This document shows, one piece after another, positions 2,951-61,689 of a stretch of 64,000 nucleotides of DNA. Under the pieces are notes generated by a model. It was not told the origin of the DNA. It was given only the letters and a program-made list of their open reading frames with translations, and did no database searches. Position numbers and translations under genes: made by a program. Source of the DNA: Hydrotalea sp. (GTDB taxonomy: Bacteria; Bacteroidota; Bacteroidia; Chitinophagales; Chitinophagaceae); NCBI RefSeq assembly GCF_049968455.1, contig NZ_JBMFQT010000015.1, positions 6,285 to 70,284 of the forward strand, read 5' to 3'. Within the stretch, counting starts at the first letter, position 1. The number at the start of each line of letters is the position of its first letter.

Positions 2951-3604
2951 ATGAAAACAATAATCCTACTTTTCCCACTATTCTTAGTACAAACAGTATT
3001 TGCACAAAACCCGTCCATAAAAGTTGTTGATACAGATTTCTCTAAAGGAAGATTAACACATCAACAAGTTATTACCTTAAATGACGCCGAAAAACTGCAT
3101 GGTCATTTATGCGATGGACTAGCTATGGGATTTATAAGCTTACAACAAGCTTTATATACTTTATATCCCGACAGTATAATTGACAGAACCAATACACGCA
3201 TCATCAGCAAATCCTCCCCATGCCTTGCAGATATTGGCATTTTTTTAAGTGGTGGTAGGTACCAGTATAATTCTTTTCGCATTAATGATTCCATCCCCTA
3301 TCTTTTCATTGCTCAACGCATAGATAACGGTAAAACAGTAGCCGTGCAATTAAATCCGGGTATTAAACCACAACGCATTGACGAAATGGGCAAATTGGCA
3401 ATTCAACAAAAACTAAACCCATGCCAATTAAATGAGCTTAAACAATTAGAGGAAAAATTCACCTTAAAACTACTTTCGCAGCCACCAAAAACATTATTTA
3501 CAGTTATTCAACTACCCCCTATTGAGTGGCCTAAGAACGCTTATCAGCAATTTATTAAAACAGACATCATTAATAAATCAATGAACACTTGTATTCAAAA
3601 TTAA
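2951..3604 (+). CDS. FmdE-domain-like protein with N-terminal signal peptide
   Basis: The signal peptide MKTIILLFPLFLVQTVFAQ is followed by 'LHGHLCDGLAMGF', which resembles the 'HGHxCPGxxxG' core of the FmdE family (PF02663). It starts 9 nt after the CDF gene. Confidence 0.55.
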   Translation: MKTIILLFPLFLVQTVFAQNPSIKVVDTDFSKGRLTHQQVITLNDAEKLHGHLCDGLAMGFISLQQALYTLYPDSIIDRTNTRIISKSSPCLADIGIFLSGGRYQYNSFRINDSIPYLFIAQRIDNGKTVAVQLNPGIKPQRIDEMGKLAIQQKLNPCQLNELKQLEEKFTLKLLSQPPKTLFTVIQLPPIEWPKNAYQQFIKTDIINKSMNTCIQN

Positions 3605-3609
3605 TCATT

Positions 3610-4068
3610 ATGGAACCACATTTTTATCAGGTTGATGTAACCTGGAATTCAGAACGCAAAGGAATTATGTGTTCACCCGAATTGAACAATGCATCAGGAA
3701 GTTGTATTGAAGTAGCTACCCCACCCGACTTTCCTAAAGGAATGCCCGGCATTTGGTCGCCGGAACATTTGTTTACGGCAGCAGTAAGTAGTTGCTTAAT
3801 GACTACCTTTTTGGCTATTGCCGAAAACTCGAAACTAACGTACACCCATTTTAGTTGTAGTTCAAAAGGAAAATTAGAGCAAGTTGATGGCAAATTCATG
3901 ATGAGTGAAGTGTTGCTGGAACCTACACTTATTATTACCGAAGAAAGAGATAGAGAGCGGGCAGAAAGAGTTTTACAAAAGTCAGAAGCCGCCTGTTTAA
4001 TTTCTAATTCCGTAAAATCAAAAATTACAATGATTCCCAAAATTATTGTTCAAGCTACAAGCGAATAA
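3610..4068 (+). CDS. OsmC/Ohr-family protein
   Basis: 'SPEHLFTAAVSSCLMTTFLAIAE' and the C-terminal 'SEAACLISNSVK' give the two conserved Cys regions of OsmC-like proteins. The ATG at 3610 avoids overlap with the upstream stop at 3604. Confidence 0.8.
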   Translation: MEPHFYQVDVTWNSERKGIMCSPELNNASGSCIEVATPPDFPKGMPGIWSPEHLFTAAVSSCLMTTFLAIAENSKLTYTHFSCSSKGKLEQVDGKFMMSEVLLEPTLIITEERDRERAERVLQKSEAACLISNSVKSKITMIPKIIVQATSE

Positions 4069-10891: not shown

Positions 10892-11310
10892 CTACTTGTA
10901 TAGAACTAATCCCGAATGAAATAGTAAGCCATTCGCCCCCCGGTTTATTAAAAAAATGGCGTTATTACATGATGTTACCAACCAAGAAAAGGGTATCAAT
11001 ACTATGCTTCATTACCCATTTAATACCCCCTTAGTGTCTGGCACATTCTTTGAATAAATAGTACACTTGCTTATTACGTGCATTACACACAATAACCATT
11101 GGGCAATAAAAAAAACATTCATTAAAAACCTTTTTTTTAAAAACCTTTTTTTGTTGTAAAGCAATAGTACCCCCATTGGCCATAATAACTACCTCCAAAT
11201 GCTAATTGGGCATTCCTGCAAAAATTTTCATACTACTTGTTAGTAATTATAAATGAAAATTAACCGTTAACTTGCCCTGCAACAATGTTTTATTATTTAG
11301 TAATAATGCT

Positions 11311-11967
11311 ATGCAACCTATTCTCATTTATTGTTATGATGCTTATTGTGGTTGGTGCTACGGATTCAGTCCGGTTTTAAAAAAAGTTACTGCAGAATTT
11401 GCAGCCTATTTTAGTGTGGAGGTTTTAAGTGGCGGAATGATTTTACCGGAGCAACCCACCCCTATTGGTGTAATGGCACCTTACATTCAACAAGCCTACA
11501 AAACTGTTGAAAATACTACCGGAATTAATTTTGGAGAAGATTATTTGTGGCATATTTTTCACCCGGAATTAAGCGATTGGTTCCCTAATTCTGAAAAACC
11601 GGCTATAGCGCTTTGTATCTTTAAAGAATATTTCCCCGAAAAACAATTGCAGTTTGCGAGCGATTTGCAATATGCTTTAAATTTTGAAGGACGCGACTTA
11701 ACAGATGATGAAGCTTATCGTCATTTGTTACATCAATATCAAATTCCTGAAGAGGAATTTTACAAAAAACTGCATGATGAAACGTACAAAGAAAAAGCTT
11801 ACTATGAATTTGCACTTTGCAAACAATTACAGGTAACAGGTTACCCTGCTGTTTTATTACAAACAACAGAAAGCAAACTATATTTATTGGCAAAAGGATT
11901 TACCGATGAAGCAACACTTCGCCAACGCATTAAAAATGTATTAAAAGAGGTGCAAATACTACCCTAA
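11311..11967 (+). CDS. DsbA-family thioredoxin-fold protein
   Basis: 'YCYDAYCGWCYGF' supplies a CxxC active site at the N-terminus of a ~215-aa protein, and 'VTGYPAVLL' lies near the C-terminus. The ATG at 11311 is preferred. Confidence 0.75.
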   Translation: MQPILIYCYDAYCGWCYGFSPVLKKVTAEFAAYFSVEVLSGGMILPEQPTPIGVMAPYIQQAYKTVENTTGINFGEDYLWHIFHPELSDWFPNSEKPAIALCIFKEYFPEKQLQFASDLQYALNFEGRDLTDDEAYRHLLHQYQIPEEEFYKKLHDETYKEKAYYEFALCKQLQVTGYPAVLLQTTESKLYLLAKGFTDEATLRQRIKNVLKEVQILP

Positions 11968-17756: not shown

Positions 17757-19163
17757 TTGAACTACCCCTTTTTGAAAATATTGAATAAATGGTTATGGAT
17801 AATAGCAATTTGCCATGTATGCTCTATGACCAATGCCCAAAATAATACTGCACATCATCCTGAAATAGAATTTTTATTAAAGTATCCAAAGTCTGTACAC
17901 ATCACCTTACCCGGAAGAAATGCTGAGTTTATTAAGTTATCTCATCCCTGGGAAAATCAAAGACAAGTACTTTTAAAATCAGATACCGCCATTTACCTTT
18001 TTATTGACGGGTCGGGTATCATTTATCAATACAATCATCATCAATTTGTAAGAATGGACTCCACTATTTATAGGGGTTACAATTATGGTGCTTTCCCTTT
18101 TATATATAAAAATGAATTATATAATTTAGGCGGTAGTGGTTATTGGCGTATTACAGGGCATTTACGAAAATATAGCAATAAGGCACATGAATGGTATATT
18201 ATTCCTTTAAATGAGGAAAATCCGGTACTTAATGAACCTAATGCCAGCATGATTTGGTATAATCCCAATGCAGGAAAAATTTATTGTGCCAATTTTGTTG
18301 ACAAAAATGGAGGCATAAAAAAGCAAACAACACAAAATTATAACCAATATAAGGTGAAAGTGCTTGACCTAAACACCTTAAACTGGACTACTTTAGGCAC
18401 TTTGAATAAAACTTTATGGCCATTTACCAAATCTACTCAGGAAGTTGCTATGACCCCCTGGGGCGTACTACTAGATAATGATGGGAAAAACCTATTGTGG
18501 AACTTTGAGAAAAATACTTTATACCGTTTACCATTGGAAAACGACAAAAGCCAGTTTATTATTACGAATTATTTAAATGGAAATTTGTTTTGTTTAGATT
18601 CAACCCTTTACTTGTGCGAAAAAAATAAAATTGATACCATTCCCCTCAGCCTTTCGGAATTTGAAGATACAGGTATACCAATTTATGTGAAGGAAGCAAA
18701 TCAGTTGCATACAAATAGTAACCTCACCATTCTTATCATTGCATGCTTAGTGGTATTAGTTGGTGGAGTTGCATTTTGGAAGTATTATAAAAACAAACAA
18801 CATGCGCCATCCTTACAACAAATTGTTACCAATAACCTAACTGGCGAAAAAAGCTTATACACAAAAAAATTTCCGGAGTATACTGATCAAGAATGGGAAG
18901 TATTAAAATTAATCTTACAAAATACGCAAAATAATGAACCTACTAGCATTGATGAATTAAACAGCATATTAGGTTTAAAAAATAAAAGCTTGGAAACACA
19001 AAAAAGCCAGCGATACAAAATTCTTACTTCCATTAATCAAAAGTACTTAGCCATAAAAGGCACAGAACTGATTATTCGTGAACCGGATGCTATCGATAAA
19101 AGAATTAAAGTATACCATATTCATCCCAATGCGATAGCTGAATTGAAGGCCAATATGAGCTAG
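17757..19163 (+). CDS. Membrane-anchored putative transcriptional regulator (extracytoplasmic repeat domain, one TM, C-terminal wHTH-like domain)
   Basis: Signal-like N-terminus, then a ~300-aa domain with Kelch/beta-propeller-like repeats ('LYNLGGSGYW', 'GKIYCANF'). This is followed by the TM helix 'LTILIIACLVVLVGGVAFW' and a cytoplasmic tail 'YTDQEWEVLKLILQN...PTSIDELNSILGL...QRYKILTSINQKY'. Confidence 0.5.
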   Translation: MNYPFLKILNKWLWIIAICHVCSMTNAQNNTAHHPEIEFLLKYPKSVHITLPGRNAEFIKLSHPWENQRQVLLKSDTAIYLFIDGSGIIYQYNHHQFVRMDSTIYRGYNYGAFPFIYKNELYNLGGSGYWRITGHLRKYSNKAHEWYIIPLNEENPVLNEPNASMIWYNPNAGKIYCANFVDKNGGIKKQTTQNYNQYKVKVLDLNTLNWTTLGTLNKTLWPFTKSTQEVAMTPWGVLLDNDGKNLLWNFEKNTLYRLPLENDKSQFIITNYLNGNLFCLDSTLYLCEKNKIDTIPLSLSEFEDTGIPIYVKEANQLHTNSNLTILIIACLVVLVGGVAFWKYYKNKQHAPSLQQIVTNNLTGEKSLYTKKFPEYTDQEWEVLKLILQNTQNNEPTSIDELNSILGLKNKSLETQKSQRYKILTSINQKYLAIKGTELIIREPDAIDKRIKVYHIHPNAIAELKANMS

Positions 19164-19204: not shown

Positions 19205-19717
19205 CTAAAAATTATTCCATTGCGTTCCCGATTCATTGTCAAATCCGTACTTACGAGATATTGTTGTTTTACCCAACGCATCTGTTTGATAATAAGTCCA
19301 CCCAACTTTTGCAGGGGCTAATGTAACCTGTGTAGATAATAAACCATTACAGCCCATTGCCTCTGTACAATTAATTACTCTAACATTTTCCATGAAAACG
19401 GTGTTTCCTAAAACAAGCTGACCTGAATTACCCATTTGTAAAACGGATAGTAACCCATTTTTTAATACAATGCCAAGTTGCATAGCCCTTTTTAAATCGG
19501 CACTTGCTCCTGTTATATTCATAGAAAATATAAATTGATTGCTGTTTTTCCCACCCTCAGAAAAAGACAGTATAGAAATATTACCTTCAAAACCACGCAT
19601 GAATGCATCACCTTTGATTAATTTACCCGTTTCATCAAATAGCTTTAAATAAACTCTTTGGTTTTGAGCCCATGTGATAAGCGGGAAGTACAACAAAAAA
19701 AGTATAATTGTACGCAT
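19205..19717 (-). CDS. Hcp/TssD-like (PF05638-like) protein carrying an N-terminal Sec signal peptide
   Basis: Signal peptide MRTIILFLLYFPLITWAQ. The mature N-terminus is 'VYLKLFDETGKLIKGDA..GFEGNISILSFSEGG' and the C-terminus is 'TQVTLAPAKVGWTYYQTDALGKTTISRKYGFDNESG'. Both follow the opening and closing strands of proteobacterial-type Hcp as I remember them, and the mature length (~150 aa) also fits. Confidence 0.55.
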   Translation of the reverse strand: MRTIILFLLYFPLITWAQNQRVYLKLFDETGKLIKGDAFMRGFEGNISILSFSEGGKNSNQFIFSMNITGASADLKRAMQLGIVLKNGLLSVLQMGNSGQLVLGNTVFMENVRVINCTEAMGCNGLLSTQVTLAPAKVGWTYYQTDALGKTTISRKYGFDNESGTQWNNF

Positions 19718-19741: not shown

Positions 19742-21142
19742 TTATTTAGAGAAGCCCGTAAAAACCCCTGAACCAGGATATTGAGCATCATTCATCCACA
19801 AAACTCTTTTCCCTTTTTGTGCCGTAAAATAAACATCATAAACCTTTGGTTTACCACTGATATCTGAAAACCGTATTTGCCAATTATTAACTGACTCAAA
19901 AACACCATTACTTTTACTTTGCAAAACACCTGTTCTTCCACCAAAACTGTTAGTAGCTATCAATTGCCATTCATAATGGTTGCTCCCGTCAAAATTGAAC
20001 CATTGCGTTGAGGCATAGGTTTGCATTCCAGCACTTTGACCGGTATAAATATTAGTATAGTAGGTATTACTTGTAAAACGATCCGTCCATTTACCGGTAC
20101 CAAATAAATCTGCAGCGGCCACAGCAAATTTGTTTCTACCAGACATGTTATCAAGCGTTTGCAATACATCAGCATTACTATCCCATTGAATGGATTCCGG
20201 ATCAAAATGAAATGTGGATACAAAATCAGCTTTTGTGGGTGTTATAACTTCTATCCAACCGGCACTTCGTTTAAACAATACCAGATAAACTTGTTGTTTG
20301 GTTACATTTGAAACCGCATTCCCAAAGCCAATATAAGGTCTATTAAAAGTATTAATGTAAGTAGTTCTGAAATTAGTTAAGTTACTGTAACGAGGTGCAA
20401 CTAAAATATTCCATGCAGTTCTAACAAGCGGATCCGTATCTGCAGGAAATATTGTTCCTTCTTTAGGATAATGCAATAAAACTTTGTAATTATCTTTTGA
20501 TACTTCTACCCAATCTTCTTTTTCAATTGCAGTCCACCCATCATCAAAATTTGTAGTATTAAATGTAAACTTAGAATTCGCAACAGGCGTTTCAATCTGC
20601 ATCCATTGATTGTTGTTTTGTATCACTAATGTTGAATCCGAAACCGATTGTTTGAATTGTACTGACGATAAAAAATCATCAATTAATGATGTATATACAG
20701 CACTGTTAAACATCACTAATATATTTACCGTAGTATTTTTGCGAGTTGCATTTACTAGCAGCGCAACACCGCTTAATTCACCTTCATTAAAAGGTGCATA
20801 ACCACTAATAGCTTCCCATTCCTGTTCTTTTATTGGTTTTTGCATTTCCGGTTCATTGTTTACGTGCAGGTTTTGCTTTACCAATTGCTGCCAGGAAAGG
20901 TCAAAGTTTTGTTTTAGTGTACTCGTTGTTATAGCGCTTTTAAAAATTGATATTTTACACCACTCCTTATTTTTTTGATTGATAGTATAATAATTTCTTA
21001 CGTCTTGAAATGTCTGTTGCTCCCATCCAATGGGTGGTTTAAACGTTACAAGATCAAAACTATCTATTTGCGCATTTAAGTTGGTAATGAAAAACAATGG
21101 CATCAAAAGCACTCCTGTGCTATGCATTAATTTAGTTAACAT
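19742..21142 (-). CDS. Exported hypothetical protein (466 aa)
   Basis: Signal peptide '...GVLLMPLFFITNLNAQ'. The composition is beta-rich and W/Y/N-rich. No family was recognised. It sits in the operon with 23-24-nt gaps on each side. Confidence 0.6.
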   Translation of the reverse strand: MLTKLMHSTGVLLMPLFFITNLNAQIDSFDLVTFKPPIGWEQQTFQDVRNYYTINQKNKEWCKISIFKSAITTSTLKQNFDLSWQQLVKQNLHVNNEPEMQKPIKEQEWEAISGYAPFNEGELSGVALLVNATRKNTTVNILVMFNSAVYTSLIDDFLSSVQFKQSVSDSTLVIQNNNQWMQIETPVANSKFTFNTTNFDDGWTAIEKEDWVEVSKDNYKVLLHYPKEGTIFPADTDPLVRTAWNILVAPRYSNLTNFRTTYINTFNRPYIGFGNAVSNVTKQQVYLVLFKRSAGWIEVITPTKADFVSTFHFDPESIQWDSNADVLQTLDNMSGRNKFAVAAADLFGTGKWTDRFTSNTYYTNIYTGQSAGMQTYASTQWFNFDGSNHYEWQLIATNSFGGRTGVLQSKSNGVFESVNNWQIRFSDISGKPKVYDVYFTAQKGKRVLWMNDAQYPGSGVFTGFSK

Positions 21143-21165: not shown

Positions 21166-23031
21166 TTAATAAATTGGAACATTGGTAAAAGTTCCTTTAA
21201 TATCACCCGCAAAGCCATTGGTAAAGGTTTCCGTCATAGCATCGCCCTTTTTAATGGGCTTAAGTCCTTGAATCATCACACCAAATGTAAAATAACCACT
21301 TGCTTTACCATTTTCTACTTTTTCAATAACAAACTTGCAGGTTGGAGATGCAGCTGGTAAATGACGAATTAATCCCTCATCCACAAAATTGGCCATATGT
21401 CCGTTGGTAACAATAGGTGAAAATTTATATACATACGGTTTTTTATCTGTTCCATAAAATAATACCGCTTCATTGTCTTTTATTTCAGCATATTGTTTAG
21501 TTCCGTATAATGGTTGCTTTTGATTAATCTCCTGAAAATTGAATGTTTCAGGTTTTAAATTGCTATTCACAGATACCAGATGAATCTTCACATAATTTTC
21601 TTTGCTATTACCTTCCTCTTTACTTGCAATGAATGTATAAGTATTTTCACCTGTTTTCATAAACTGAGCAAACGGTAATTGTGTATTTAAAATTTTACTT
21701 TGCAATTGCAAATTGGTATTACTTACCGGAGTACTGTTTTTTCCGGTTGATGTATTTGTACTAGGCTTAGCTGCATTGGGTTTACTTTCAGAAGTTGAAT
21801 TGATGGTGTTGCTATAATTATCGGCTTCAGGCTTAAATATAAATTCAACTCTTCTATTTTGTGCTTTACCTTCCGGTGTTTTATTATCAGCAATGGGTTG
21901 TGATTCTCCGCGCCCTTCTGTAGTAAGTTTGGATGCATCAATATTATATTGATTAACTAAAATATTTTTTACTGTTTCAGCACGTTGTTGTGAAAGTTTT
22001 AAATTTAGTGCTTCATCACCGTCACTATCGGTATGACCAACAATTTTAACTAGTGTAGTTGTTTCTTTCAGCACTTTACTTACATCTAACAAAGCACCCA
22101 TACTTTCGGGTTTTAAATTAGCAGTACCACTATAGAATAATAGGTTACTAACTAATTTACCTTCTTCAAAACGAGAACGGGTATCGGGTACATCCTTTGC
22201 AACACGAATATTACTCACATAATAGTCTGTTCCACCAACACTGCCGAAATTGAAGCCAAATTGATTAGGCAAATAAGTTTCATTGACAGCGGGTAAATCG
22301 TATAACTTTCTATCATTCCACCACATTCTAAAACGCTTACCTTGTACACACATACTAACATGTACCGGTGTTAAATTATTGTAAGGTAACTCCTCAGACA
22401 TATTATCTGATAGCCGTTTATCGAGATTTCTGAGGATAGCGCGGCTTTTATTTTCACCCGCAATGATAGATTCAAAATATATTGCCGGTTTAGCGCTTTG
22501 TAAAATACCCTCATCAGTTACTAAATTACCTCCTGTATTATACAAAACAATATCGAGCCTTGGATCGTATGAATTCTTTACAATCAACAAATCAAATTCT
22601 ATAGTGAAATTATTTCCCCAACTTTGCTTTTTGTTGCGCGATATATGTGTGGCATTACTTGCGGCCATTTTTACCCACTTACCCTCTAAACCATCAATGG
22701 TTACTACTTCAGCCGATTTAGAAGTAATCCATCCTTCAGGAGCTTCACCAATATTATCTTTTTCAAAATTATCAAAATATAAAATGGTAGTACCCGGAAC
22801 AAAATCAAACTTACTATACACTTTTAAATCGGGTTGACGTGACTGACTTGATGCCGTTGCATTATCACCTGCATCAGATTTTTTAGGATTATCATTTGTT
22901 TTAGGTGCATCCGCTTTATCAATTTTTTTTGATACTGCCTGCTCTGCTTTTTGTTGTAGCTTTTTTAATAACTGACTGTGGGTATTGTTTATGCAAAACA
23001 GTATACCCAAGCTTAACATTATTAGTTTCAT
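21166..23031 (-). CDS. OmpA-family peptidoglycan-binding protein with an N-terminal jelly-roll-like domain and an unassigned ~190-aa C-terminal extension
   Basis: Signal peptide MKLIMLSLGILFCINNTHSQ. The OmpA_C core is 'VKIVGHTDSDGDEALNLKLSQQRAETVKNIL...GRGESQPIADNKTPEGKAQNRRVEFIFK' (roughly residues 330-400), followed by a Ser/Thr/Asn linker and a further domain. Confidence 0.85.
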   Translation of the reverse strand: MKLIMLSLGILFCINNTHSQLLKKLQQKAEQAVSKKIDKADAPKTNDNPKKSDAGDNATASSQSRQPDLKVYSKFDFVPGTTILYFDNFEKDNIGEAPEGWITSKSAEVVTIDGLEGKWVKMAASNATHISRNKKQSWGNNFTIEFDLLIVKNSYDPRLDIVLYNTGGNLVTDEGILQSAKPAIYFESIIAGENKSRAILRNLDKRLSDNMSEELPYNNLTPVHVSMCVQGKRFRMWWNDRKLYDLPAVNETYLPNQFGFNFGSVGGTDYYVSNIRVAKDVPDTRSRFEEGKLVSNLLFYSGTANLKPESMGALLDVSKVLKETTTLVKIVGHTDSDGDEALNLKLSQQRAETVKNILVNQYNIDASKLTTEGRGESQPIADNKTPEGKAQNRRVEFIFKPEADNYSNTINSTSESKPNAAKPSTNTSTGKNSTPVSNTNLQLQSKILNTQLPFAQFMKTGENTYTFIASKEEGNSKENYVKIHLVSVNSNLKPETFNFQEINQKQPLYGTKQYAEIKDNEAVLFYGTDKKPYVYKFSPIVTNGHMANFVDEGLIRHLPAASPTCKFVIEKVENGKASGYFTFGVMIQGLKPIKKGDAMTETFTNGFAGDIKGTFTNVPIY

Positions 23032-23048
23032 TGTATTTATTTTAATGA

Positions 23049-25151
23049 TTAATTGAGGCTTTCTAATAAACCAGTTCCACCCATTGAACTACTGCCACTC
23101 ACCAAACTAATTCTACCTTCTACACCTATATCAGCAGGTCCTGCACTTACTCCTGCTTTACCAATTACATATGCATCCTTTAGGCCGGTTCTATCAATTT
23201 CAATACCCACTCCTCCACCTGCAGATGCACCCACTTGAATAGGACCAACTTCTATTTCTTTACCTGCTTCTGCTGTTATTTCAACAGTGCAATTCATAAA
23301 TTGATCTGCAAAAGTTTCCTTATCCATATTCTGTTTCAAACTTCCCTTAATAAAGGGCACATCAATAGAAGTGGTTACCCTACTGCAATCAAAACTTGCC
23401 TTCATCACAATCATGTTTAATTCTGTATGATATTGGCATGCAACATCATCAAACTCTGCTAACTTAAATTTGCCGGAAGGTTTATTTTTCGATTCTTCTG
23501 TACATATGTATAAGGTGTTTTTTTCAAAATGGGCTTCGCGTAATGCTTCCCACCATTTAATCTTCATCATTACTTTGCTGGCTTCAAATTCTTCGGGCCA
23601 TTGCGTATATTTTAACCAGTGCACTTCCTCATTCATTTTACGACGGAATAAATCCAGCATTTGTTGTTTTAATTCTTCAGCCTCGGTATTAACAGTTTGC
23701 AAATAATTATTTGTCAGCAATTTCTTTTCCGCGCAAAAACTTTTGTTAGCTAATCCTTCACCGGTTTGTTCCGCTTCTTTTTCATTAATGGTATGCAATA
23801 ACGAATCATAAGTTTTTTTCAATTCATTTTGTTTGTATAAAAACTTCATTTGTTTTTCATTCAGTCGCTTTAGTTGCACCATATAATTACTCGACTCATC
23901 GTTCAATGCTTTTAATTTTAAAGCTGCTTTTGGAGCATAAAAAGGCATTACCGATAATGTACCTGTTTTTTTACCTGTTAGCAATGCTTTATTGACGAAT
24001 TGTATGTTTTGATTAATTCGTATAGAATTATTTTGTTGTGCTAATTCCTGTAATCCTTTTAAAGTTTGTTTCAATTTTTCAATTTCTTCATCACACATAG
24101 CTATGTAATTAGCCCAATCTTTCTCTAATGCAATGCACCCATCAACCGATTTAGGATAAGCCGGTTGTTGATATTCCGATAAAATGAGATTTTCATCATT
24201 ACCGGGCAATTTCCATTCAATATCTTTCTCAGAAATTGTTACACCAAATTTTCTAAGTCTACTTTCTTTTTCATTTGTATATGCGTGATGTAACGATTGC
24301 TTTACTGCATTAATAGCACCGTTTTTGTTACCCTTGCTTTCTTCAATGTATGATTTGGTAAGATTAGCTTGCGGATGATATGCATACAAACGAATAGCAC
24401 TATCTAAATATTTTTCAGCTTTATTCATTTCACCTAATCCATACCAGGCCTGACCCAAGTTATTAAGTATGGCATTATTATTCGGATACTGTTTATTTAA
24501 ATACTGCAGAATAGGAATAGACAGGGGTTCAGCACTGCTCATAATTAACATAGAAGTATAATTGCTCAAATTGTCTATATTATTTGGATTTTGTAAAACT
24601 ATTTTACCCATAACATATACTGCCACTGCCTGATTTCCCATCATCCAAATTCCCACAGCCGCTCTTCCGGCTTGTGCAGCAGGCAATGACATTAATTGTT
24701 GAAATATTTCATCCCCTAACGTAACAATAGAAGCACCCATAACCTGTTGAATTTTTTGCTGACCATATTTTAATAAAGTAATTACACCCTGTTGTGTAAC
24801 AGGTGTGGGTGGTATACGACTAATTCTTGCCGTATTTCTTATGGGAACTATTTGCGTTTCTTTTGCATAAGCCTTACTCAATTGCTTGTCATTTACATGG
24901 GACACTTGTTGAGCTGTTTTATTAAAATCAGGAAGAAGAATACCTAAACTGTCCATCGTCTTTTTTTCCTTAGCACTTATATTACTCATTTGCTTTTGAG
25001 CCTGTCGTATTAAGGCTTGCATTTCTTGTTGTGTAGGTGGCTGTTCAACATTGCTTTTTTTAACAGATTGCCCTATTAATAAATGGCTGTTGAGAATAAT
25101 AAACAAGAAGAATGAACATTTCAATATTTTACAATAAAAAAAAGAATACAT
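23049..25151 (-). CDS. Exported TPR/coiled-coil protein with a glycine-rich C-terminal domain (700 aa)
   Basis: Hydrophobic N-terminus. TPR-like 'LNNLGQAWYGLGEMNKAEKYLDSAIRLYAYHPQANL'. Long heptad-like segments (EIEKLKQTLKGLQELAQQ..., LKRLNEKQMKFLYKQNELKK...). The C-terminus is 'VGPIQVGASAGGGVGIEIDRTG...GVSAGPADIGVEGRISLVSGSSSMGGTG'. Confidence 0.65.
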   Translation of the reverse strand: MYSFFYCKILKCSFFLFIILNSHLLIGQSVKKSNVEQPPTQQEMQALIRQAQKQMSNISAKEKKTMDSLGILLPDFNKTAQQVSHVNDKQLSKAYAKETQIVPIRNTARISRIPPTPVTQQGVITLLKYGQQKIQQVMGASIVTLGDEIFQQLMSLPAAQAGRAAVGIWMMGNQAVAVYVMGKIVLQNPNNIDNLSNYTSMLIMSSAEPLSIPILQYLNKQYPNNNAILNNLGQAWYGLGEMNKAEKYLDSAIRLYAYHPQANLTKSYIEESKGNKNGAINAVKQSLHHAYTNEKESRLRKFGVTISEKDIEWKLPGNDENLILSEYQQPAYPKSVDGCIALEKDWANYIAMCDEEIEKLKQTLKGLQELAQQNNSIRINQNIQFVNKALLTGKKTGTLSVMPFYAPKAALKLKALNDESSNYMVQLKRLNEKQMKFLYKQNELKKTYDSLLHTINEKEAEQTGEGLANKSFCAEKKLLTNNYLQTVNTEAEELKQQMLDLFRRKMNEEVHWLKYTQWPEEFEASKVMMKIKWWEALREAHFEKNTLYICTEESKNKPSGKFKLAEFDDVACQYHTELNMIVMKASFDCSRVTTSIDVPFIKGSLKQNMDKETFADQFMNCTVEITAEAGKEIEVGPIQVGASAGGGVGIEIDRTGLKDAYVIGKAGVSAGPADIGVEGRISLVSGSSSMGGTGLLESLN

Positions 25152-25179: not shown

Positions 25180-25665
25180 TTATTTCAAAGCATTTGTTTG
25201 TAGTTGTGCAATCTCACCCGCAACAATATTGGCAACATTAGCCACCTGACGAATCAAACGTTCCATATACTTACTATTCAACAAATCAATGAATGCATCA
25301 GAACGGATATATACATCATTATGCTGATCCATTCCTATTTTAATCAAGTCAAAATGATCAGCCTGCTGTAACAAGTGGTGCATTACAAGTGAATCATCTT
25401 TAAAAGATTGTACTTCAGATAAATTGGTATAGATAATGCATAAATCACTTACGCGCTGAATAACAATTTGATAATCCGGAATACTGCTTCCACTGTATGG
25501 AATAACTGCTACGCTATCATTTATAATACGATAAGGCAAAGCAACTTTTAACAATAATTGCTCCATTATACCTTCTTTTTGGGGAGCCAAAGATTTTGTT
25601 TGTGCCTGCATTAAAAAGGGAACAAACATCACCAGCAGTAGGAATAAGCATTTTAATTGTTTCAT
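25180..25665 (-). CDS. Exported small protein, YbjN/T3SS-chaperone-like fold suspected
   Basis: Signal peptide MKQLKCLFLLLVMFVPFLMQAQ. The pattern 'YRIINDSVAVIPYSG...YQIVIQRVSDLCIIYTNL...LLQQADHFDLIKIGMDQHNDVYIRSD' resembles the YbjN-like (PF10722) layout. The assignment is weak. It is the first gene of the operon. Confidence 0.4.
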   Translation of the reverse strand: MKQLKCLFLLLVMFVPFLMQAQTKSLAPQKEGIMEQLLLKVALPYRIINDSVAVIPYSGSSIPDYQIVIQRVSDLCIIYTNLSEVQSFKDDSLVMHHLLQQADHFDLIKIGMDQHNDVYIRSDAFIDLLNSKYMERLIRQVANVANIVAGEIAQLQTNALK

Positions 25666-25853: not shown

Positions 25854-27827
25854 ATGTCGTACAAAAGGCTATTGTATTTTATATTATTTGTTGCTGCTAT
25901 GCATATAAACCTGAAGGGGCAAACTATCAGTGCCGATAGCATAATGCAACAAATACAACGCATGCCTAATGATACCGCAAAAGTGAACAAATTAAATGAA
26001 CTGATTGGATTACTGCAATTTCAAAATCATGACAAAGCAGAAGAAATATCGTGGAAATCTATTCAATTAGCGCAACAATTAAATTATAGATTAGGATTAA
26101 TAATTGCCAGAAGATTAAGAGGTGTATTATATATTGACAAAGCCCAATTAGATAGTGGCAAATATTTTTATGATAAAGCATTTGCTTTAATTAAAAATTC
26201 AACCCAACCTACTTTTATTAAACAAAAAGGCCTATTAACCCACAATTATGGAGTTATTTATCATCAACGTCAATTATATGACTCCGCCACTATGCAATAT
26301 TTAGAAGCGATAAAAATCTTTAACTCTATCAATGAAGAAGGATTGACCTTTTTCCCCTGTTTAAATTTAGCCACTATTTATAGCTTCTTAAATGACAATA
26401 ATAAAGCACTATATTATAGTAAAGAAGCCATAAAAGGTGCAGAAAAATTAAATGATAAAACTAAATTGGTCATTGCCATTAACCAGGAAATGTCCATTCA
26501 TATCGCTTTAAAAAATTTCGATACTGTACTTACACCTTTAAGAAGAAATATTGCATTAGCACATTCACTTCAACATTACTATGCAGAAGGAAAAGCGCAC
26601 CATTTATTGGGTAAATATTTTTCGGAAGGAAAACAAATGTTTGATTCTTCTATTGAAAACAAAAAAAAGGCATTGACATTAATGCAGAAAATTCGCAATC
26701 AATATGAAATTACTAGTATTACAGAAGATATAGGCTTCGACTATCTACAAAAAGAAAACTATAATGAAGCCAAATACTATTTAACACAATCCATTAGCCT
26801 AGCGCAACAATTTGGATTAGATCAAATTAAACAATATGGTTTAGAAAATATGGTAATAGTAGAAGAAAAATTAGGCAACATTCCTGCTGCTTATCAATAT
26901 TTAAAAGAGTATACCACTTTAAAGGATTCATTGGCAGCCCGTTCAAATCAAAATTATTTATTTGATCTAGAAGCCAAATATCAAAATGCCAATAAAGAAT
27001 TACAAATTGCACAATTAGAGTCTGAAAAAAAAATTCATGAATTAGCATTGAAGCAAAATAAAATTTGGAATTATGTTCTAATTGCAGCATCTATTACCAT
27101 ATTTATTATTGGTTCGTTAACCTATCGCAATCACAAACACAAACAAACACTACAACAACAACGTATTATTGAACTAGAAACGCAACAACAACTGGCCGCT
27201 ACAGAAGCAATTTTGAAAGGTGAAGAACAGGAAAGAACCCGTTTAGCCAAAGATTTACATGATGGATTAGGAGGCATGCTATCGGGTATCAAATACACTA
27301 TGAGCCATATGAAACAAAATTTGATAATGACACCCGAAAACCAACAAGCATTTGAACGTAGTTTAGATATGCTTGATTCTTCTATCAACGAAATGCGCAG
27401 GGTTGCACATAACATGATGCCCGAAGTACTACTTAAATTTGGATTAGATGCAGCTTTACATGATTTATGCCAACAAACAAACGAAACGGGGGCCATTGAA
27501 TTAAAATATCAAAGCATTGGTATTAAGAATAAAACTTTTGAACAAACAACCGCCATACATATTTACCGAATTGTACAAGAGCTGATTAATAACATTTTAA
27601 AACATGCTAATGCACAACAAGCCATTGTGCAAATTACTGATGATGATAATACTATACATATTACGGTAGAAGATAACGGCAAGGGCATGCCGGAGCACAA
27701 ACAACAATTTTCAAAAGGAATTGGATGGAATAATATATATAGCCGAGTAGATTATTTAAAAGGGAAAGTAGATATTCAAACCGCACCGGGAAAAGGCACA
27801 TCAGTTCACATTGAACTTAATGTATGA
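25854..27827 (+). CDS. Sensor histidine kinase (periplasmic TPR domain, one TM, HisKA_3, HATPase_c)
   Basis: Signal/anchor, then TPR-like repeats over ~350 aa and the TM 'IWNYVLIAASITIFIIGSLTY'. These are followed by a coiled coil, the H-box 'ERTRLAKDLHDGLGGMLS', N-box 'ELINNILKHANA' and G-box 'DNGKGM...GIGWNNI'. Confidence 0.9.
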   Translation: MSYKRLLYFILFVAAMHINLKGQTISADSIMQQIQRMPNDTAKVNKLNELIGLLQFQNHDKAEEISWKSIQLAQQLNYRLGLIIARRLRGVLYIDKAQLDSGKYFYDKAFALIKNSTQPTFIKQKGLLTHNYGVIYHQRQLYDSATMQYLEAIKIFNSINEEGLTFFPCLNLATIYSFLNDNNKALYYSKEAIKGAEKLNDKTKLVIAINQEMSIHIALKNFDTVLTPLRRNIALAHSLQHYYAEGKAHHLLGKYFSEGKQMFDSSIENKKKALTLMQKIRNQYEITSITEDIGFDYLQKENYNEAKYYLTQSISLAQQFGLDQIKQYGLENMVIVEEKLGNIPAAYQYLKEYTTLKDSLAARSNQNYLFDLEAKYQNANKELQIAQLESEKKIHELALKQNKIWNYVLIAASITIFIIGSLTYRNHKHKQTLQQQRIIELETQQQLAATEAILKGEEQERTRLAKDLHDGLGGMLSGIKYTMSHMKQNLIMTPENQQAFERSLDMLDSSINEMRRVAHNMMPEVLLKFGLDAALHDLCQQTNETGAIELKYQSIGIKNKTFEQTTAIHIYRIVQELINNILKHANAQQAIVQITDDDNTIHITVEDNGKGMPEHKQQFSKGIGWNNIYSRVDYLKGKVDIQTAPGKGTSVHIELNV

Positions 27828-28438
27828 TAACAAAATTGTTCATAGTAGATGACCATTATATGGTAATTGAAGGCATTCATGCATTACTACAAAATGAAAA
27901 AAACATTGAGTGGATAGGGCACGCTATGAACGCAGATTCATGCCTGGCTTTTTTACAACACCAACAACCCGATATTATTTTAATGGATATTAGCCTTCCG
28001 GATACCAGTGGTATTGAGTTATGTAAGATGGTAAAAACAAAATACCCCGCTATTAATATAGTTGCCCTAAGCACATTTAATCAACAAAGCTTTATAAAAA
28101 AAATGATGGAAAATGGTGCTTCCGGCTATTTATTAAAAAATGCTTCCACTAAAGAAATTTTAGATTGCATTGAAACTACCATGAAAGGAAAATCTTATTT
28201 TAGTTTTGAAGTAGCTCAAACATTACGTTATCATTCCAATGATGAAATAATATTAACCCTTCGCGAAAAAGAAGTTTTAGCACTTATCGCGGAAGGATTA
28301 ACGAATCCGGAAATTGGACAACGTTTATTTATTAGCACCACTACAGTTGATTCACATCGAAAAAACATCCTTACAAAATTCAATGTAAAAAATACAGCAG
28401 CACTAATTCATGCTGCCATAAAAAAAGGCTTCTTATAA
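27824..28438 (+). CDS. NarL/FixJ-type response regulator (REC plus LuxR HTH)
   Basis: 'LFIVDDH', 'DIILMDISLPDTSG' and the C-terminal 'LTLREKEVLALIAEGLTNPEIGQRLFISTTTVDSHRKNIL'. A 4-bp ATGA overlap with the kinase gene indicates translational coupling. Confidence 0.92.
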   Translation: MITKLFIVDDHYMVIEGIHALLQNEKNIEWIGHAMNADSCLAFLQHQQPDIILMDISLPDTSGIELCKMVKTKYPAINIVALSTFNQQSFIKKMMENGASGYLLKNASTKEILDCIETTMKGKSYFSFEVAQTLRYHSNDEIILTLREKEVLALIAEGLTNPEIGQRLFISTTTVDSHRKNILTKFNVKNTAALIHAAIKKGFL

Positions 28439-28514: not shown

Positions 28515-28916
28515 ATGTCTGTTACTGCTACTATTCATCAGGAACAATACCAAACCCTTTTAGATACGCCATCGGGTATATTCATAGCCGATGAACATAT
28601 TGAAGTAGGCGGAACACAAAAGGGAATGAACCCACATGAGTTGTTATTGGGAAGTTTAGCTTCCTGCACTGCTATTACCTTACGTATGTATGCCAATAGA
28701 AAAGAATGGCCATTAGATAGTGTTCAGGTAAATGTGAATATTACAGTTGAAGCAGATGCAACAAAGGGTACCATTTTTGAAAGATCTATTCAGCTAAACG
28801 GCAATCTTTCTGCTGAACAAAAAGAAAGATTATTGTATATAGCCAATCGTTGCCCTATACACAAAATATTGTCAGGTGCCTTGCACATAGAAACTAATTT
28901 AAACAACGGAATATGA
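28515..28916 (+). CDS. OsmC-family protein
   Basis: 'NPHELLLGSLASCTAITLRMYA' and 'IANRCPIHKIL' are the two conserved Cys motifs of OsmC-like proteins. Confidence 0.85.
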   Translation: MSVTATIHQEQYQTLLDTPSGIFIADEHIEVGGTQKGMNPHELLLGSLASCTAITLRMYANRKEWPLDSVQVNVNITVEADATKGTIFERSIQLNGNLSAEQKERLLYIANRCPIHKILSGALHIETNLNNGI

Positions 28917-37404: not shown

Positions 37405-37564
37405 ACCACTCCTGTATATTCCTGCAAAAAAATTCGGCTTTTTGCGCGTTTTTCTTAATTTGTGCTGTACCTATTGGTAATTAGGCCAATCAGCACCACA
37501 TAACACCTAACCACATTCAATCGGTGAACTTATGCCTAAATGTTTCAACAAAATAACTTTCATT

Positions 37565-40500: not shown

Positions 40501-40612
40501 GGTGTACATTTTTCTGAGTAACCATGTTGACCCTACACGAAATAATAACTTGCTGTTTAACCTGCACATACGGCCTAATATTCAGGAAGTATTGTACAAG
40601 GCCATACAGTAA
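37565..40612 (+). CDS. Fusion protein: GH3 beta-N-acetylhexosaminidase (NagZ-like) N-terminal half plus beta-lactamase/PBP-like serine hydrolase C-terminal half
   Basis: The GH3 half has 'IDGEWGLGMR', 'NYAPVVDIN', 'DRSFGED' and 'KHFPGHGDVAVDSHKDLP'. The C-terminal half has 'YDLASVTKISAT' (SxxK), 'YSDNDF' and 'FGHTGFTGT' (HTG). It carries a signal/anchor N-terminus. The start is ATG 37565 or 37532. Confidence 0.88.
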   Translation: MKPFNAFLLSGNQQFNTQHSKSLRFAGYLCMLLSALIFSTKTIQAQDFYKHSKAADKWVNHTFKKMSKADRIAQLMIVRAHSNLGAEHIQAVTQLVQQYHVGGLCFFQGGPVRQALLTNYYQSIAKTPLMICIDGEWGLGMRLDSVISFPRQLLLGAISDNAPLMYTVGKAIGEQCKRMGIQVNYAPVVDINNNPQNPVINDRSFGEDKYKVALYGTAIMQGMQSENIMACAKHFPGHGDVAVDSHKDLPVINKSMAQLDSLELYPFKALIKAGVGSVMMGHLFVPAIDTTEHLATSISKNAVTGLLKNELGFKGITFTDALEMQGIAKFFPAGQAALQSLIAGNDMLCLPGDVPGSIQLILQAIKDKKLSWDDINARVKKVLLVKYNMGLAKFTPIDTTNLVNDLNSKTAQLNETLAQQAITAVSFNNHSLLPVNATKKIAYVSIGANGIPFIAQQLQNSYNTHIYSFANKAKMGNEVMDNLNSREPFTQSDSATANRLLQTITANQYDLVLVGLHNYSRRPANNFGIDAPSVYLLQQLQQLPNAIIITFGNPYAISNVCSATNLVSANEDTHDTQMAVYKWLTDSLTAKGTLPVSVCTNLPYGTGLQYNSWFPKTNPELAGMNATTLLQIDSIAQEGVDKGAYPGCEVLAARNGKIVYHKAFGYLNPDEQIPVTLQTVYDLASVTKISATTVAIMKLVDEGKIDIQKTLGDYLPQAKGTNKAGLVLKDILLHQAGLVPFISFYKETIDSITGKPLPQYFATQKDAQHQIRVAENIYLRNDWDDTIMQRIMKSKLLPHGHYVYSDNDFILLAKVVEAVTGKPLNEYVSEQFYEPLKMISTTFSPRKKIPLDQIAPTEIETHFRNQQMWGDVHDEGAAMLGGVAGHAGLFSNAYDLAQLYQMLLNKGTMNGKRYLSEKVVNEFTAYNSNISRRGLGFDKPEKNNANSKDPYPCKSASPLTFGHTGFTGTCVWVDPQYNLVYIFLSNHVDPTRNNNLLFNLHIRPNIQEVLYKAIQ

Positions 40613-44247: not shown

Positions 44248-44267
44248 CCTTACTTAGCTTTAACGCC

Positions 44268-61275: not shown

Positions 61276-61689
61276 ATGAAAACTACTACTAAATGGGTAT
61301 CACATTTAGCATTTAACAGCAATGATGACAATAACCACACCGTTCGATTAGATACCAGTTCCGATGATGGCAGTTTAAACAGTGGCATGAGCCCCAAAAA
61401 AATGTTATTGGGTGCATTAAATACCTGCAGTGGTATGGATGTAGTTGGCATTTTACAAAAAATGAAAGTTCCCTTTTCTCAATTTGAAATTGAAGCTGAA
61501 GCAGAACAAACTACCACCCACCCCAAAGTATTTACCGGCATCCATTTAACTTATAAAGCGAATATTCCTGCCCAAGAAGAAGATAAATTTAAAAAAGCTA
61601 TTGAGCTTTCCTTAAATACCTATTGTGGCATTGCAGCTATGTTGAAAAAACATTGCAGCATTACTTATAGCATAATTTTGCTAACTTAA
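61276..61689 (+). CDS. OsmC-family protein
   Basis: 'SPKKMLLGALNTCSGMDVVGIL' and 'NTYCGIAAML' are the two Cys motifs of OsmC-like proteins. Confidence 0.85.
   Translation: MKTTTKWVSHLAFNSNDDNNHTVRLDTSSDDGSLNSGMSPKKMLLGALNTCSGMDVVGILQKMKVPFSQFEIEAEAEQTTTHPKVFTGIHLTYKANIPAQEEDKFKKAIELSLNTYCGIAAMLKKHCSITYSIILLT

What the first reader, a model, noticed from the sequence alone, without database searches (positions are those of the whole stretch)
19205..19717. Hcp/TssD-like tube protein carrying a Sec signal peptide
Seen: the 170-aa product begins with a textbook signal peptide (MRTIILFLLYFPLITWAQ). It then follows the Hcp pattern as I remember it from proteobacterial Hcp1-type proteins. The opening is 'VYLKLFDETGKLIKGDA..GFEGNISILSFSEGG', the middle is 'LKRAMQLGIVLKNGLLSVLQ', and the closing strands are 'TQVTLAPAKVGWTYYQTDALGKTTISRKYGFDNESG'. 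Established: Hcp is a cytoplasmic protein without a signal peptide. It polymerises inside the TssBC sheath and leaves the cell through the T6SS. Bacteroidota T6SS-iii TssD also lacks a signal peptide. Seen: no TssB/C/E/F/G/K, VgrG, PAAR or ClpV-like gene occurs in these 64 kb. Inference: an Hcp-fold ring protein delivered to the periplasm or cell surface by Sec would be acting outside a contractile machine. It could serve, for example, as a periplasmic chaperone ring, a conduit, or a structural subunit.
Basis: partly seen in the sequence, partly recalled or inferred. Interest (0 to 1): 0.72.

Follow-up and report, generated by a model that had tools for sequence, protein, structure and literature searches.

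The report
Signal-peptide-bearing Hcp-fold protein family
This gene encodes a protein with the fold of the type VI secretion tube subunit (Hcp), but it carries a conserved export signal and sits in an operon of other exported proteins, so it most likely works in the cell envelope and not inside a contractile injection machine.

Summary
ORF 19205-19717 (minus strand, 170 aa) is a real, conserved gene of a Hydrotalea-like Chitinophagaceae bacterium.

- **Fold:** It has an Hcp fold. Pfam PF05638 is just below threshold for this protein but matches 26 of 27 relatives. A family profile hits E. coli Hcp1 in the PDB at 2.8e-6. The top 50 listed Foldseek PDB hits are Hcp or Hcp1-fusion chains.
- **Signal peptide:** The 17-residue N-terminal signal peptide sits in front of a complete Hcp domain. 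It is conserved in essentially all of about 137 close homologues from at least 55 Bacteroidota genomes. The -1 residue is A/S/G, and +1 is Gln in 122 of 137, which fits the Bacteroidetes Q-rule. No alternative start could give a leaderless Hcp.
- **Family-specific features:** A Cys pair (C-x5-C-N) and a C-terminal W-x-x-F tail.
- **Context:** The gene is usually the last one in a conserved operon of signal-peptide proteins, next to a TPR histidine kinase and a LuxR-type regulator. No T6SS gene was found in the 64 kb window or among the recurrent gene families within 10 kb at about 59 related loci.

My reading is a Sec-exported Hcp-fold envelope protein that is not a T6SS tube. Ring formation, partners and function are inferred. 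A T6SS elsewhere in the genome is not excluded. I found no report of this family in the literature.

The parts
19205..19717 (-). SP-Hcp gene: 170 codons plus a stop codon at 19205-19207
   Evidence: ORF found. An identical protein is annotated as hypothetical in Hydrotalea sp. (P0001). 91 homologue clusters were found, and 57 genome loci.
19667..19717 (-). Signal peptide, residues 1-17 (MRTIILFLLYFPLITWA). Predicted SPase I cleavage is A17|Q18.
   Evidence: Conserved n/h/c layout. -1 is A/S/G in 135 of 135 pattern matches and +1 is Q in 122 of 137. The Q-rule is described in PMC5837995. AF2 models residues 2-16 as a detached helix.
19208..19654 (-). Hcp-fold domain, residues 22-170
   Evidence: PF05638 aligns residues 23-142 over the full profile. 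The family profile aligns residues 22-143 to 4hkh. Foldseek PDB hits are Hcp chains.
19349..19369 (-). Family-specific Cys pair C117...C123 (C-x5-C-N), at the end of a strand and in the following loop. Putative disulfide.
   Evidence: Both Cys are invariant in A1. The motif is present in 131 of 137 homologues. EAEC Hcp1 has no Cys in the aligned region.
19208..19219 (-). C-terminal W-x-x-F tail (WNNF)
   Evidence: Present in 135 of 137 close homologues. 143 of 185 homologues of 150-225 aa end in F, whereas the two leaderless Hcp-type hits (P0352, P0355) end after the shared GWD motif without this tail.
19742..21142 (-). F466: a 466-aa exported protein of unknown function, immediately upstream of SP-Hcp
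   Evidence: Its cluster is present in 56 of 61 loci, in 1-4 copies per locus. More than 1000 homologue clusters exist and none has a Pfam domain. The AF2 model has pLDDT 80; the only convincing Foldseek matches are to PsbP-type proteins, over about 150 residues.
21166..23031 (-). F621: a 621-aa exported protein. This copy has an OmpA-type peptidoglycan-binding domain at residues 298-393.
   Evidence: OmpA E = 6.9e-23. The cluster is present in 42 loci, but only 2 of 17 members carry the OmpA domain.
23049..25151 (-). TPR700: a 700-aa exported protein with TPR repeats, a probably helical middle region and a Cys-containing C-terminal part
   Evidence: Weak TPR hits. 9 of 16 relatives hit TPR_19, best E = 2.6e-8. 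The cluster is present in 31 loci. Leader ...LLIG|Q. Invariant Cys residues are listed.
25180..25665 (-). First gene of the operon: a 161-aa exported protein with no known domain
   Evidence: leader MKQLKCLFLLLVMFVPFLMQA|Q. It has only one clear homologue among the loci (L022). Proteins of about 160 aa at the same position elsewhere group with F466.
25854..27827 (+). Divergently transcribed sensor histidine kinase (TPR, HisKA_3 and HATPase_c domains)
   Evidence: The cluster is present in 28 loci. It is also next to a distant SP-Hcp locus, L064.
27824..28438 (+). LuxR/GerE-type response regulator, overlapping the kinase gene by 4 nt
   Evidence: The cluster is present in 22 loci.

Best explanation
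The gene encodes a founding-type member of a Bacteroidota-wide family of Hcp-fold proteins that leave the cytoplasm through Sec (called SP-Hcp here).

**Proposed steps.**
1. The 17-residue leader is removed by signal peptidase I before Gln18.
2. The mature protein of about 153 residues folds in the periplasm. A family-specific Cys117-Cys123 disulfide stabilises it there.
3. It works with the exported proteins encoded in the same operon: a 161-aa protein, a TPR protein, F621 (OmpA-anchored in this genome) and F466.
4. The adjacent TPR histidine kinase and LuxR-type regulator control the operon.

**Most likely role.** It is an oligomeric, probably ring-shaped, binding or scaffolding subunit for one of those partners. 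This would use the same surfaces that T6SS Hcp uses to hold effectors and to stack. It is not the tube of a T6SS, because that tube must polymerise in the cytoplasm inside the sheath.

**Shown:** the fold, the conserved leader with its cleavage-site signature, the family-specific Cys pair and W-x-x-F tail, the conserved operon, and the absence of T6SS genes nearby.

**Inferred:** cleavage, periplasmic location, the disulfide, oligomerisation, partner binding and regulation by the two-component system.
For: **Fold**
- PF05638 covers its full profile length.
- 26 of 27 relatives match PF05638, best E = 1.2e-11.
- The family profile hits Hcp1 4hkh at 2.8e-6.
- The top 50 listed Foldseek PDB hits are Hcp or Hcp1-fusion chains, with E down to 1e-9. 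Phage tail tube proteins match only at E of 1e-4 or weaker.

**Export**
- The leader is conserved in all full-length homologues from 57 genome loci spanning Chitinophagaceae, Flavobacteriaceae, Cyclobacteriaceae, Flammeovirgaceae, Rikenellaceae and Bacteroidales.
- -1 is A/S/G, -3 is mostly small, and +1 is Q in 122 of 137. This matches the Bacteroidetes Q-rule for SPase I substrates (PMC5837995).
- The Hcp domain is complete from residue 22, so the leader is an addition and not a replaced strand.
- Nearly every 150-220 aa hit of the family profile among 1.84 billion representatives also starts with such a leader.
- The conserved Cys pair is absent from EAEC Hcp1.

**Context**
- Five same-strand genes are separated by gaps of 17-28 nt, and all have Q-rule leaders.
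- F466 is present in 56 of 61 loci, F621 in 42, TPR700 in 31, the kinase in 28 and the regulator in 22, although many loci are truncated.
- A distant SP-Hcp locus (L064) again has the kinase and regulator, an F466-like protein and two further SP-Hcp paralogues.
- No T6SS family was found in the window or among the recurrent neighbour clusters.
Against: - No signal-peptide predictor was available. Cleavage and localisation rest on sequence rules.
- The window protein itself scores just under the Pfam gathering threshold.
- The model is of moderate confidence (pLDDT 74). The region that corresponds to the long Hcp loop (residues 42-58) has pLDDT below 50 and is about 14 residues shorter than in EAEC Hcp1. 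Ring or tube formation could therefore be lost.
- No multimer prediction could be run.
- None of the partner proteins has a known function, so the 'binding or scaffolding' role is an analogy and not a result.
- The OmpA anchor is present in only 2 of 17 F621 relatives.
- Chitinophagaceae often carry T6SS-iii, and the rest of this genome could not be searched.
Confidence: 0.55

Rival explanations
1. It is an ordinary orphan T6SS-iii tube subunit (TssD/Hcp) used by a T6SS encoded elsewhere in the genome. The hydrophobic N-terminus is not a working export signal.
For: - The fold and the Pfam family are those of Hcp.
- NCBI and JGI name relatives 'type VI secretion system tube protein Hcp'.
- Orphan hcp genes are common, and Chitinophagaceae often have T6SS-iii.
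- The rest of the genome was not searchable.
Against: - The leader, with SPase I -3/-1 residues and +1 Gln, is conserved across at least 55 genomes and in distant branches. A tube subunit has no known use for it.
- Established knowledge holds that Hcp polymerises in the cytoplasm inside TssBC.
- The family has a specific Cys pair and C-terminal tail.
- The conserved neighbours are all exported proteins, never VgrG, PAAR, effector or Tss genes.
Confidence: 0.05
2. The leader is an uncleaved signal anchor. The Hcp-fold domain is displayed on the periplasmic face of the inner membrane, tethered by one helix.
For: - A hydrophobic helix is predicted at residues 2-16.
- No experimental cleavage data exist.
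- About 10% of homologues lack the +1 Gln.
Against: - The hydrophobic core is only about 13 residues and contains a conserved Pro (P12). That is short for a membrane span.
- -1 is A/S/G in 135 of 135 pattern matches, and the Q-rule signature is typical of cleaved SPase I substrates (PMC5837995).
Confidence: 0.1
3. The fold has been reused as a monomeric or otherwise non-ring beta-sandwich binding module of an envelope complex. In that case the resemblance to Hcp rings says nothing about mechanism.
For: - The long Hcp loop is shortened and poorly modelled.
- Sequence identity to solved Hcps is only 15-26%.
- In other organisms, Hcp-like domains occur as tandem repeats inside giant proteins with Ig-like (Big) domains. 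This shows the fold can be used as a module.
Against: - The domain is full length against the Hcp profile, and the central helix motif (GASADLKRAM) is strongly conserved.
- No oligomer test could be run, so there is no direct evidence against this rival.
Confidence: 0.15
4. SP-Hcp is a periplasmic helper for proteins secreted by the type IX system or displayed on the cell surface. It would hold cargo between the Sec step and the T9SS step.
For: - Genes for proteins with the T9SS sorting domain (Por_Secre_tail) lie in or beside some clusters. Examples are family c14 (RCC1 repeats plus the sorting domain) in 11 loci, family c36 in 3 loci, and the gene directly after a distant SP-Hcp in L061.
- The organism has T9SS parts: a PorZ-like gene lies at 44193-46595.
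Against: - The window operon has no gene with a sorting domain.
- The most conserved partners (F466, F621, TPR700) show no Por_Secre_tail hit.
- T9SS cargo genes are very common in Bacteroidota genomes, so their proximity could be chance.
Confidence: 0.1
5. It is a periplasmic decoy or immunity module against incoming T6SS attack. An Hcp-like ring would capture effectors that evolved to bind Hcp, and the multiplied F466 paralogues would act as immunity-like binders.
For: - One Foldseek hit of the F466 model is the immunity protein Tsi3 (3wa5_B; TM 0.62 on the target).
- F466 occurs as 1-4 diverged copies per locus, reminiscent of immunity gene arrays.
Against: - The Tsi3 match is weak (E = 7e-3), and Tsi3 is only one of several unrelated small proteins matched at that level.
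- SP-Hcp and its operon are vertically conserved with a dedicated two-component system, unlike mobile immunity islands.
- No toxin domains lie nearby.
Confidence: 0.05

Closest known systems
T6SS tube protein Hcp/TssD (Pfam PF05638), for example P. aeruginosa Hcp1 (1y12), EAEC Hcp1 (4hkh) and A. baumannii Hcp1 (4w64)
   Same: - Same fold and domain length.
- The alignment covers the full Pfam profile.
- The central helix motif and the C-terminal G-W/F-D motif are shared.
   Different: - It has a cleavable-type Sec leader, a conserved Cys pair, an added W-x-x-F C-terminus and a long loop about 14 residues shorter.
- It is never next to tss, vgrG, PAAR or effector genes in the loci examined.
- It is embedded in an operon of exported proteins.
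Orphan or specialised Hcps (Hcp-effector chaperones, and Hcp-ET fusions with C-terminal toxin domains). Comparison made from general knowledge.
   Same: They are encoded away from the main T6SS cluster. They act as a carrier or chaperone of co-encoded proteins, which is the functional analogy proposed here.
   Different: Those proteins have no signal peptide, remain T6SS-dependent, and are paired with toxins and immunity genes. Here the partners are large exported proteins with no toxin domains.
Phage and contractile-injection-system tail tube proteins (T4 gp19 type)
   Same: They share a distant common fold. Foldseek against BFVD gives tail tube proteins at E of 1e-4 to 1e-3 with TM 0.3-0.45.
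   Different: The match is much weaker than to T6SS Hcp (E = 1e-9). No phage, sheath or baseplate genes lie nearby.
Bacteroidota Sec/SPase I substrates that obey the Q-rule (PMC5837995, PMC10653852)
   Same: The leader architecture and the Gln at +1 are shared by this protein and by its four operon partners.
   Different: This is a targeting class, not a functional family. It says where the protein goes, not what it does.

Membership tests
Hcp/TssD fold family (PF05638) | Sequence match to the Pfam T6SS_HCP profile above the gathering score | tested here: inconclusive
   The window protein scores 21.4 bits against a cut-off of 23.5 (E = 3.2e-4), but the alignment is full length. 26 of 27 relatives match at E of 0.01 or better, best 1.2e-11. 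NCBIfam gave no hit.
Hcp/TssD fold family (PF05638) | Hcp beta-barrel fold with a single helix | tested here: met
   AF2 model with pLDDT 74 and pTM 0.66. The top 50 listed Foldseek PDB hits are Hcp or Hcp1-fusion chains, with probability 1.0 and TM 0.5-0.7. The family profile hits 4hkh at 2.8e-6.
Hcp/TssD fold family (PF05638) | Assembly into hexameric rings that stack into a tube | not testable with these tools
   No multimer prediction was available. The loop that corresponds to the long Hcp loop is shorter and of low confidence.
Functional T6SS tube subunit | No signal peptide; the subunit polymerises in the cytoplasm inside the TssBC sheath | tested here: not met
   A conserved N-terminal leader with an SPase I cleavage signature is present in essentially all homologues.
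Functional T6SS tube subunit | Genomic linkage to T6SS core, VgrG, PAAR or effector genes | tested here: not met
   No such gene is found among about 60 ORFs of the window. None appears among the recurrent neighbour clusters within 10 kb at about 59 loci. Whole genomes could not be searched.
Functional T6SS tube subunit | T6SS-dependent release from the cell | not testable with these tools
   This needs an experiment.
Sec/SPase I substrate (Bacteroidota Q-rule class) | Basic n-region, hydrophobic h-region of about 10-15 residues, small residues at -3 and -1, and Gln at +1 | tested here: met
   The window leader is MR-TIILFLLYFPLI-TWA|Q. Across 137 homologues, -1 is A/S/G in 135 and +1 is Q in 122. 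The rule is from PMC5837995. I used my own pattern match and no dedicated predictor.
Sec/SPase I substrate (Bacteroidota Q-rule class) | Actual cleavage and an N-terminal pyroglutamate | not testable with these tools
   This needs mass spectrometry or N-terminal sequencing.
Lipoprotein (SPase II substrate) | Lipobox with Cys at +1 | tested here: not met
   There is no Cys in residues 1-30. The family consensus is ...[AS]Q[KT].
T9SS cargo | C-terminal sorting domain (Por_Secre_tail or an equivalent) | tested here: not met
   The Pfam scan at E up to 10 shows only PF05638. The Hcp domain runs to the last residues, which leaves no room for a sorting domain of 70-100 aa.

The most novel reading that the evidence does not exclude
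SP-Hcp would be the first tail-tube/Hcp-fold protein shown to work outside any contractile injection machine. A Sec-exported, disulfide-stabilised ring or short tube would assemble in the periplasm as the core of a previously unrecognised envelope system. That system is found across Bacteroidota, is controlled by a two-component system, and includes the TPR700, F621 and F466 families, none of which has a known function.
Probability: 0.35. Interest if true: 0.8.

Novelty: new variant of a known kind. Interest (0 to 1): 0.64.

Why it matters
1. Hcp is treated as the hallmark and marker of T6SS. A phylum-wide branch that carries an export signal and lives in operons of exported proteins means the fold has a second life in the cell envelope. 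That raises new questions about what a tube-protein ring does without a sheath.
2. NCBI and JGI annotations already label these proteins 'type VI secretion system tube protein Hcp'. Surveys that count Hcp or PF05638 as evidence of T6SS will therefore over-call T6SS in Bacteroidota, notably in Chitinophagaceae from soil, water and activated sludge.
3. The gene flags a conserved operon whose main components (F466, with more than 1000 clusters and no Pfam domain; F621; TPR700) are entirely uncharacterised. This gives a concrete handle on an unknown envelope system.

Tried and rejected
- **NCBIfam scan:** no hit for the protein.
- **Single-sequence PDB search:** only a marginal Hcp1 hit, E = 0.016. 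The family profile was needed.
- **Is F466 itself Hcp-like?** I tested this with a profile-profile comparison. Only the signal peptides align, at probability 5%. Rejected.
- **Foldseek of the F466 model:** the convincing matches are to PsbP-type proteins over about 150 residues. The whole-chain hits to GH43 enzymes have TM of about 0.1 and are meaningless.
- **OmpA anchoring as a general feature of the system:** rejected, because only 2 of 17 F621 relatives have the domain.
- **Downstream SET-domain pair and M48 peptidase:** these follow the gene in many Chitinophagaceae loci. They are absent from the window and from non-Chitinophagaceae loci, so I treat them as local synteny and not as part of the system.
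- **Literature:** searches for signal-peptide or orphan Hcp in Bacteroidota found nothing relevant.
- **Whole-genome T6SS presence or absence:** this could not be done.
- **Names for distant hits:** the cluster look-up gave no useful taxonomy.

Full report
**1. The observation**

The ORF at 19205-19717 lies on the minus strand. An identical protein is on record as a hypothetical protein of Hydrotalea sp., on a 78-kb contig (P0001).

It is a real gene.
- 91 clusters of homologues of 166-172 aa share 43-58% identity over the full length.
- A scan of one genome per species found it in 57 loci.
- Most loci are from Chitinophagaceae (Ferruginibacter, Terrimonas, Hydrotalea, Lacibacter). Others are from Mariniflexile and other Flavobacteriaceae, Cyclobacteriaceae, Flammeovirgaceae, Rikenellaceae, Draconibacterium, Bacteroidales and Sphingobacteriales.

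**2. Is it Hcp-like?**

Yes.
- Pfam PF05638 (T6SS_HCP) aligns residues 23-142 to profile positions 1-129 of 129. The score of 21.4 bits is just under the gathering score of 23.5 (E = 3.2e-4).
- 26 of 27 aligned relatives hit the same family, best E = 1.2e-11.
- A profile of the family finds EAEC Hcp1 (4hkh) at 2.8e-6, and also P. aeruginosa Hcp1 (1y12).
- An AlphaFold2 model built from the 27-sequence alignment has pLDDT 74 and pTM 0.66. It shows a detached N-terminal helix (residues 2-16) followed by a beta structure with one helix.
- Foldseek against the PDB returns only Hcp chains or Hcp1 fusions among the top 50 listed hits. E goes down to 1.2e-9, probability is 1.0 and TM is 0.5-0.7.
- Phage tail tube proteins match much more weakly, at E of 1e-4 or worse and TM 0.3-0.45.

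Relative to EAEC Hcp1, the long loop after the second strand is about 14 residues shorter. That region is also the low-confidence part of the model (residues 42-58).

**3. Is the signal peptide real?**

- Every full-length homologue begins M-[RK]-x-x, followed by about 13 hydrophobic residues that include a conserved Pro, followed by [A/S/G]-Q.
- I pattern-matched 137 distinct close homologues. -1 is A, S or G in all 135 that matched. -3 is mostly A/S/G/V/T. +1 is Gln in 122.
- This is the (-3,-1) rule plus the Bacteroidetes 'Q-rule' for signal peptidase I substrates (PMC5837995 and PMC10653852).
- The Hcp domain is complete from residue 22, so the leader is an addition of about 17 residues and not a mis-read strand.
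- No in-frame ATG, GTG or TTG exists between codons 10 and 39. Residues 19-39 are conserved, with D28 and G36 invariant. A leaderless product is therefore not available.
- I searched the family profile against 1.84 billion representative proteins and found 279 hits. Almost every hit of 150-220 aa has the same kind of leader. Leaderless Hcp-type proteins appear only near E = 1e-7 (P0352, P0355).
- One caveat: the profile included the leader columns, which biases the search somewhat towards leader-bearing proteins.

**4. Family-specific features**

- The Cys pair C117-x5-C123-N lies at the end of a strand and in the following loop. It is present in 131 of 137 homologues and is absent from the aligned region of EAEC Hcp1.
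- The C-terminal tail W-x-x-F is present in 135 of 137. It follows the G-W/F-D motif, which is shared with the two leaderless Hcp-type hits; those hits end without the tail.
- A conserved Cys pair fits an oxidising, extracytoplasmic compartment. This is an inference.

**5. Surroundings**

Five genes lie on the same strand, separated by gaps of 17-28 nt:
- a 161-aa protein (25665-25180);
- TPR700 (25151-23049);
- F621 (23031-21166), which has an OmpA-type domain;
- F466 (21142-19742);
- SP-Hcp (19717-19205).

All five have Q-rule leaders. A TPR/HisKA_3 histidine kinase and a LuxR-type regulator are transcribed divergently, 188 bp away.

I clustered the ORFs of the window and 60 loci. Two pairs of these loci are duplicates.

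| Gene family | Loci where present (of 61) |
|---|---|
| F466 | 56, in 1-4 copies |
| F621 | 42 |
| TPR700 | 31 |
| Histidine kinase | 28 |
| Response regulator | 22 |

- Many loci are cut short, so these counts are lower bounds.
- SP-Hcp is usually the last gene of the run.
- Variable extras include a PD40 propeller protein, an astacin-type protease, further TPR proteins, and proteins with the T9SS sorting domain.
- A distant SP-Hcp of 208 aa (locus L064) again sits beside the kinase and regulator, an F466-like protein and two more SP-Hcp paralogues.
- Another distant member (L061) is followed by a T9SS-cargo-type protein.
- The partners are uncharacterised. F466 has more than 1000 homologue clusters and no Pfam domain.
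- The only convincing Foldseek matches of the F466 model are to PsbP-type proteins, over about 150 residues.
- Only 2 of 17 F621 relatives carry the OmpA domain.

**6. T6SS genes**

- None of about 60 ORFs in the 64-kb window hits a T6SS family. The window is ordinary chromosome, with genes such as rpoN, ffh, lptF/G, rpsP, rimM, dinB and a PorZ-like T9SS gene.
- No T6SS family turned up among the recurrent neighbour clusters of the related loci.
- The rest of the genome could not be searched. Chitinophagaceae as a family frequently have T6SS-iii (bioRxiv 10.1101/2024.05.07.592589). A T6SS elsewhere is therefore possible.
- What argues against its using this protein is the export signal, not the absence of a T6SS.

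**7. Mechanism**

- Best supported: Sec export, cleavage before Gln18, folding in the periplasm with a Cys117-Cys123 disulfide, and action together with the co-encoded exported proteins under the adjacent two-component system.
- By analogy with Hcp, the likeliest role is an oligomeric binding or scaffolding subunit. The conserved W-x-x-F tail and the TPR partner suggest one testable contact.
- Fold, leader, conservation and context are shown. Cleavage, location, disulfide, oligomer state and partners are inferred.
- Rivals are an uncleaved anchor, a non-ring module, a T9SS-cargo helper, an anti-T6SS decoy and a true T6SS tube. They are listed separately with their evidence.

**8. Comparison and novelty**

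- By fold and profile this belongs to the Hcp superfamily.
- It fails two defining features of a functional T6SS tube subunit: it has a signal peptide, and it is not linked to T6SS genes.
- I found no paper describing signal-peptide-bearing Hcp homologues. The held library is incomplete, however.
- I rate it a new variant of a known kind. It is of real interest to T6SS and Bacteroidota envelope specialists, and it has a practical consequence for annotation: public databases call these proteins T6SS tube proteins.

Noticed in passing
Proteins P0262, P0267, P0313, P0317, P0333, P0339, P0341; locus L066 8001-12683: Giant proteins of 1100-1600 aa carry 5-6 tandem Hcp-like stretches and have no signal peptide. 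Their N-termini look like ordinary Hcp (for example MAMTYYIRIDGVAGDS...). One of them also has Big (Ig-like) domains, and no T6SS genes lie within 8 kb. Six Hcp domains in one chain could form a covalent pseudo-hexamer.
   Followed up: partly
Protein P0327; locus L063 705-2471: A 588-aa protein has a signal peptide and four tandem Hcp-like stretches. It is encoded next to a barnase-type ribonuclease and barstar pair on a short contig.
   Followed up: partly
window 19742-21142 (-): The F466 family has more than 1000 clusters at 90% identity, no Pfam domain, and occurs as 1-4 paralogues per locus. The only convincing Foldseek matches of its model are to PsbP-type proteins over about 150 residues; the C-terminal third is modelled as all-beta. 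It is a large uncharacterised Bacteroidota family in its own right.
   Followed up: partly
window 17757-19163 (+): This convergent neighbour encodes 468 aa. It has a Q-rule signal peptide, a large extracytoplasmic part, one transmembrane helix near residue 330 and a C-terminal tail of about 120 aa. It has no Pfam hit and is not conserved next to SP-Hcp in other loci.
   Followed up: no
window 44193-46595 (+): A PorZ-like T9SS component (PorZ_N beta-propeller plus Reg_prop) shows that the organism has a type IX secretion system.
   Followed up: no
window 37532-40612 (+): A 1026-aa protein fuses a glycoside hydrolase family 3 domain to a serine beta-lactamase or penicillin-binding-type domain. 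This may be a cell-wall recycling enzyme.
   Followed up: no
window 3589-4068, 28515-28916, 61276-61689; and 2042-2941, 61712-62707: The 64 kb window contains three OsmC-like genes and two cation-efflux (CDF) transporter genes.
   Followed up: no
Loci L002, L004, L005, L007, L011, L012, L018 and others, just downstream of SP-Hcp: In many Chitinophagaceae loci, SP-Hcp is followed by a small signal-peptide protein of about 90 aa, two adjacent SET-domain proteins (about 140 and 133 aa) and an M48 peptidase. These are absent from the window.
   Followed up: partly
Locus L015 (contig CALRSN020000400.1): A 3.5-kb contig carrying this Bacteroidota gene family is filed under a MAG labelled Bordetella parapertussis. 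It is probably a mis-binned contig.
   Followed up: no
window 11272-11967 (+): A DsbA-like thioredoxin-fold protein is encoded 7 kb away. This shows only that the organism has periplasmic disulfide-forming capacity, which bears on the Cys-pair inference.
   Followed up: no
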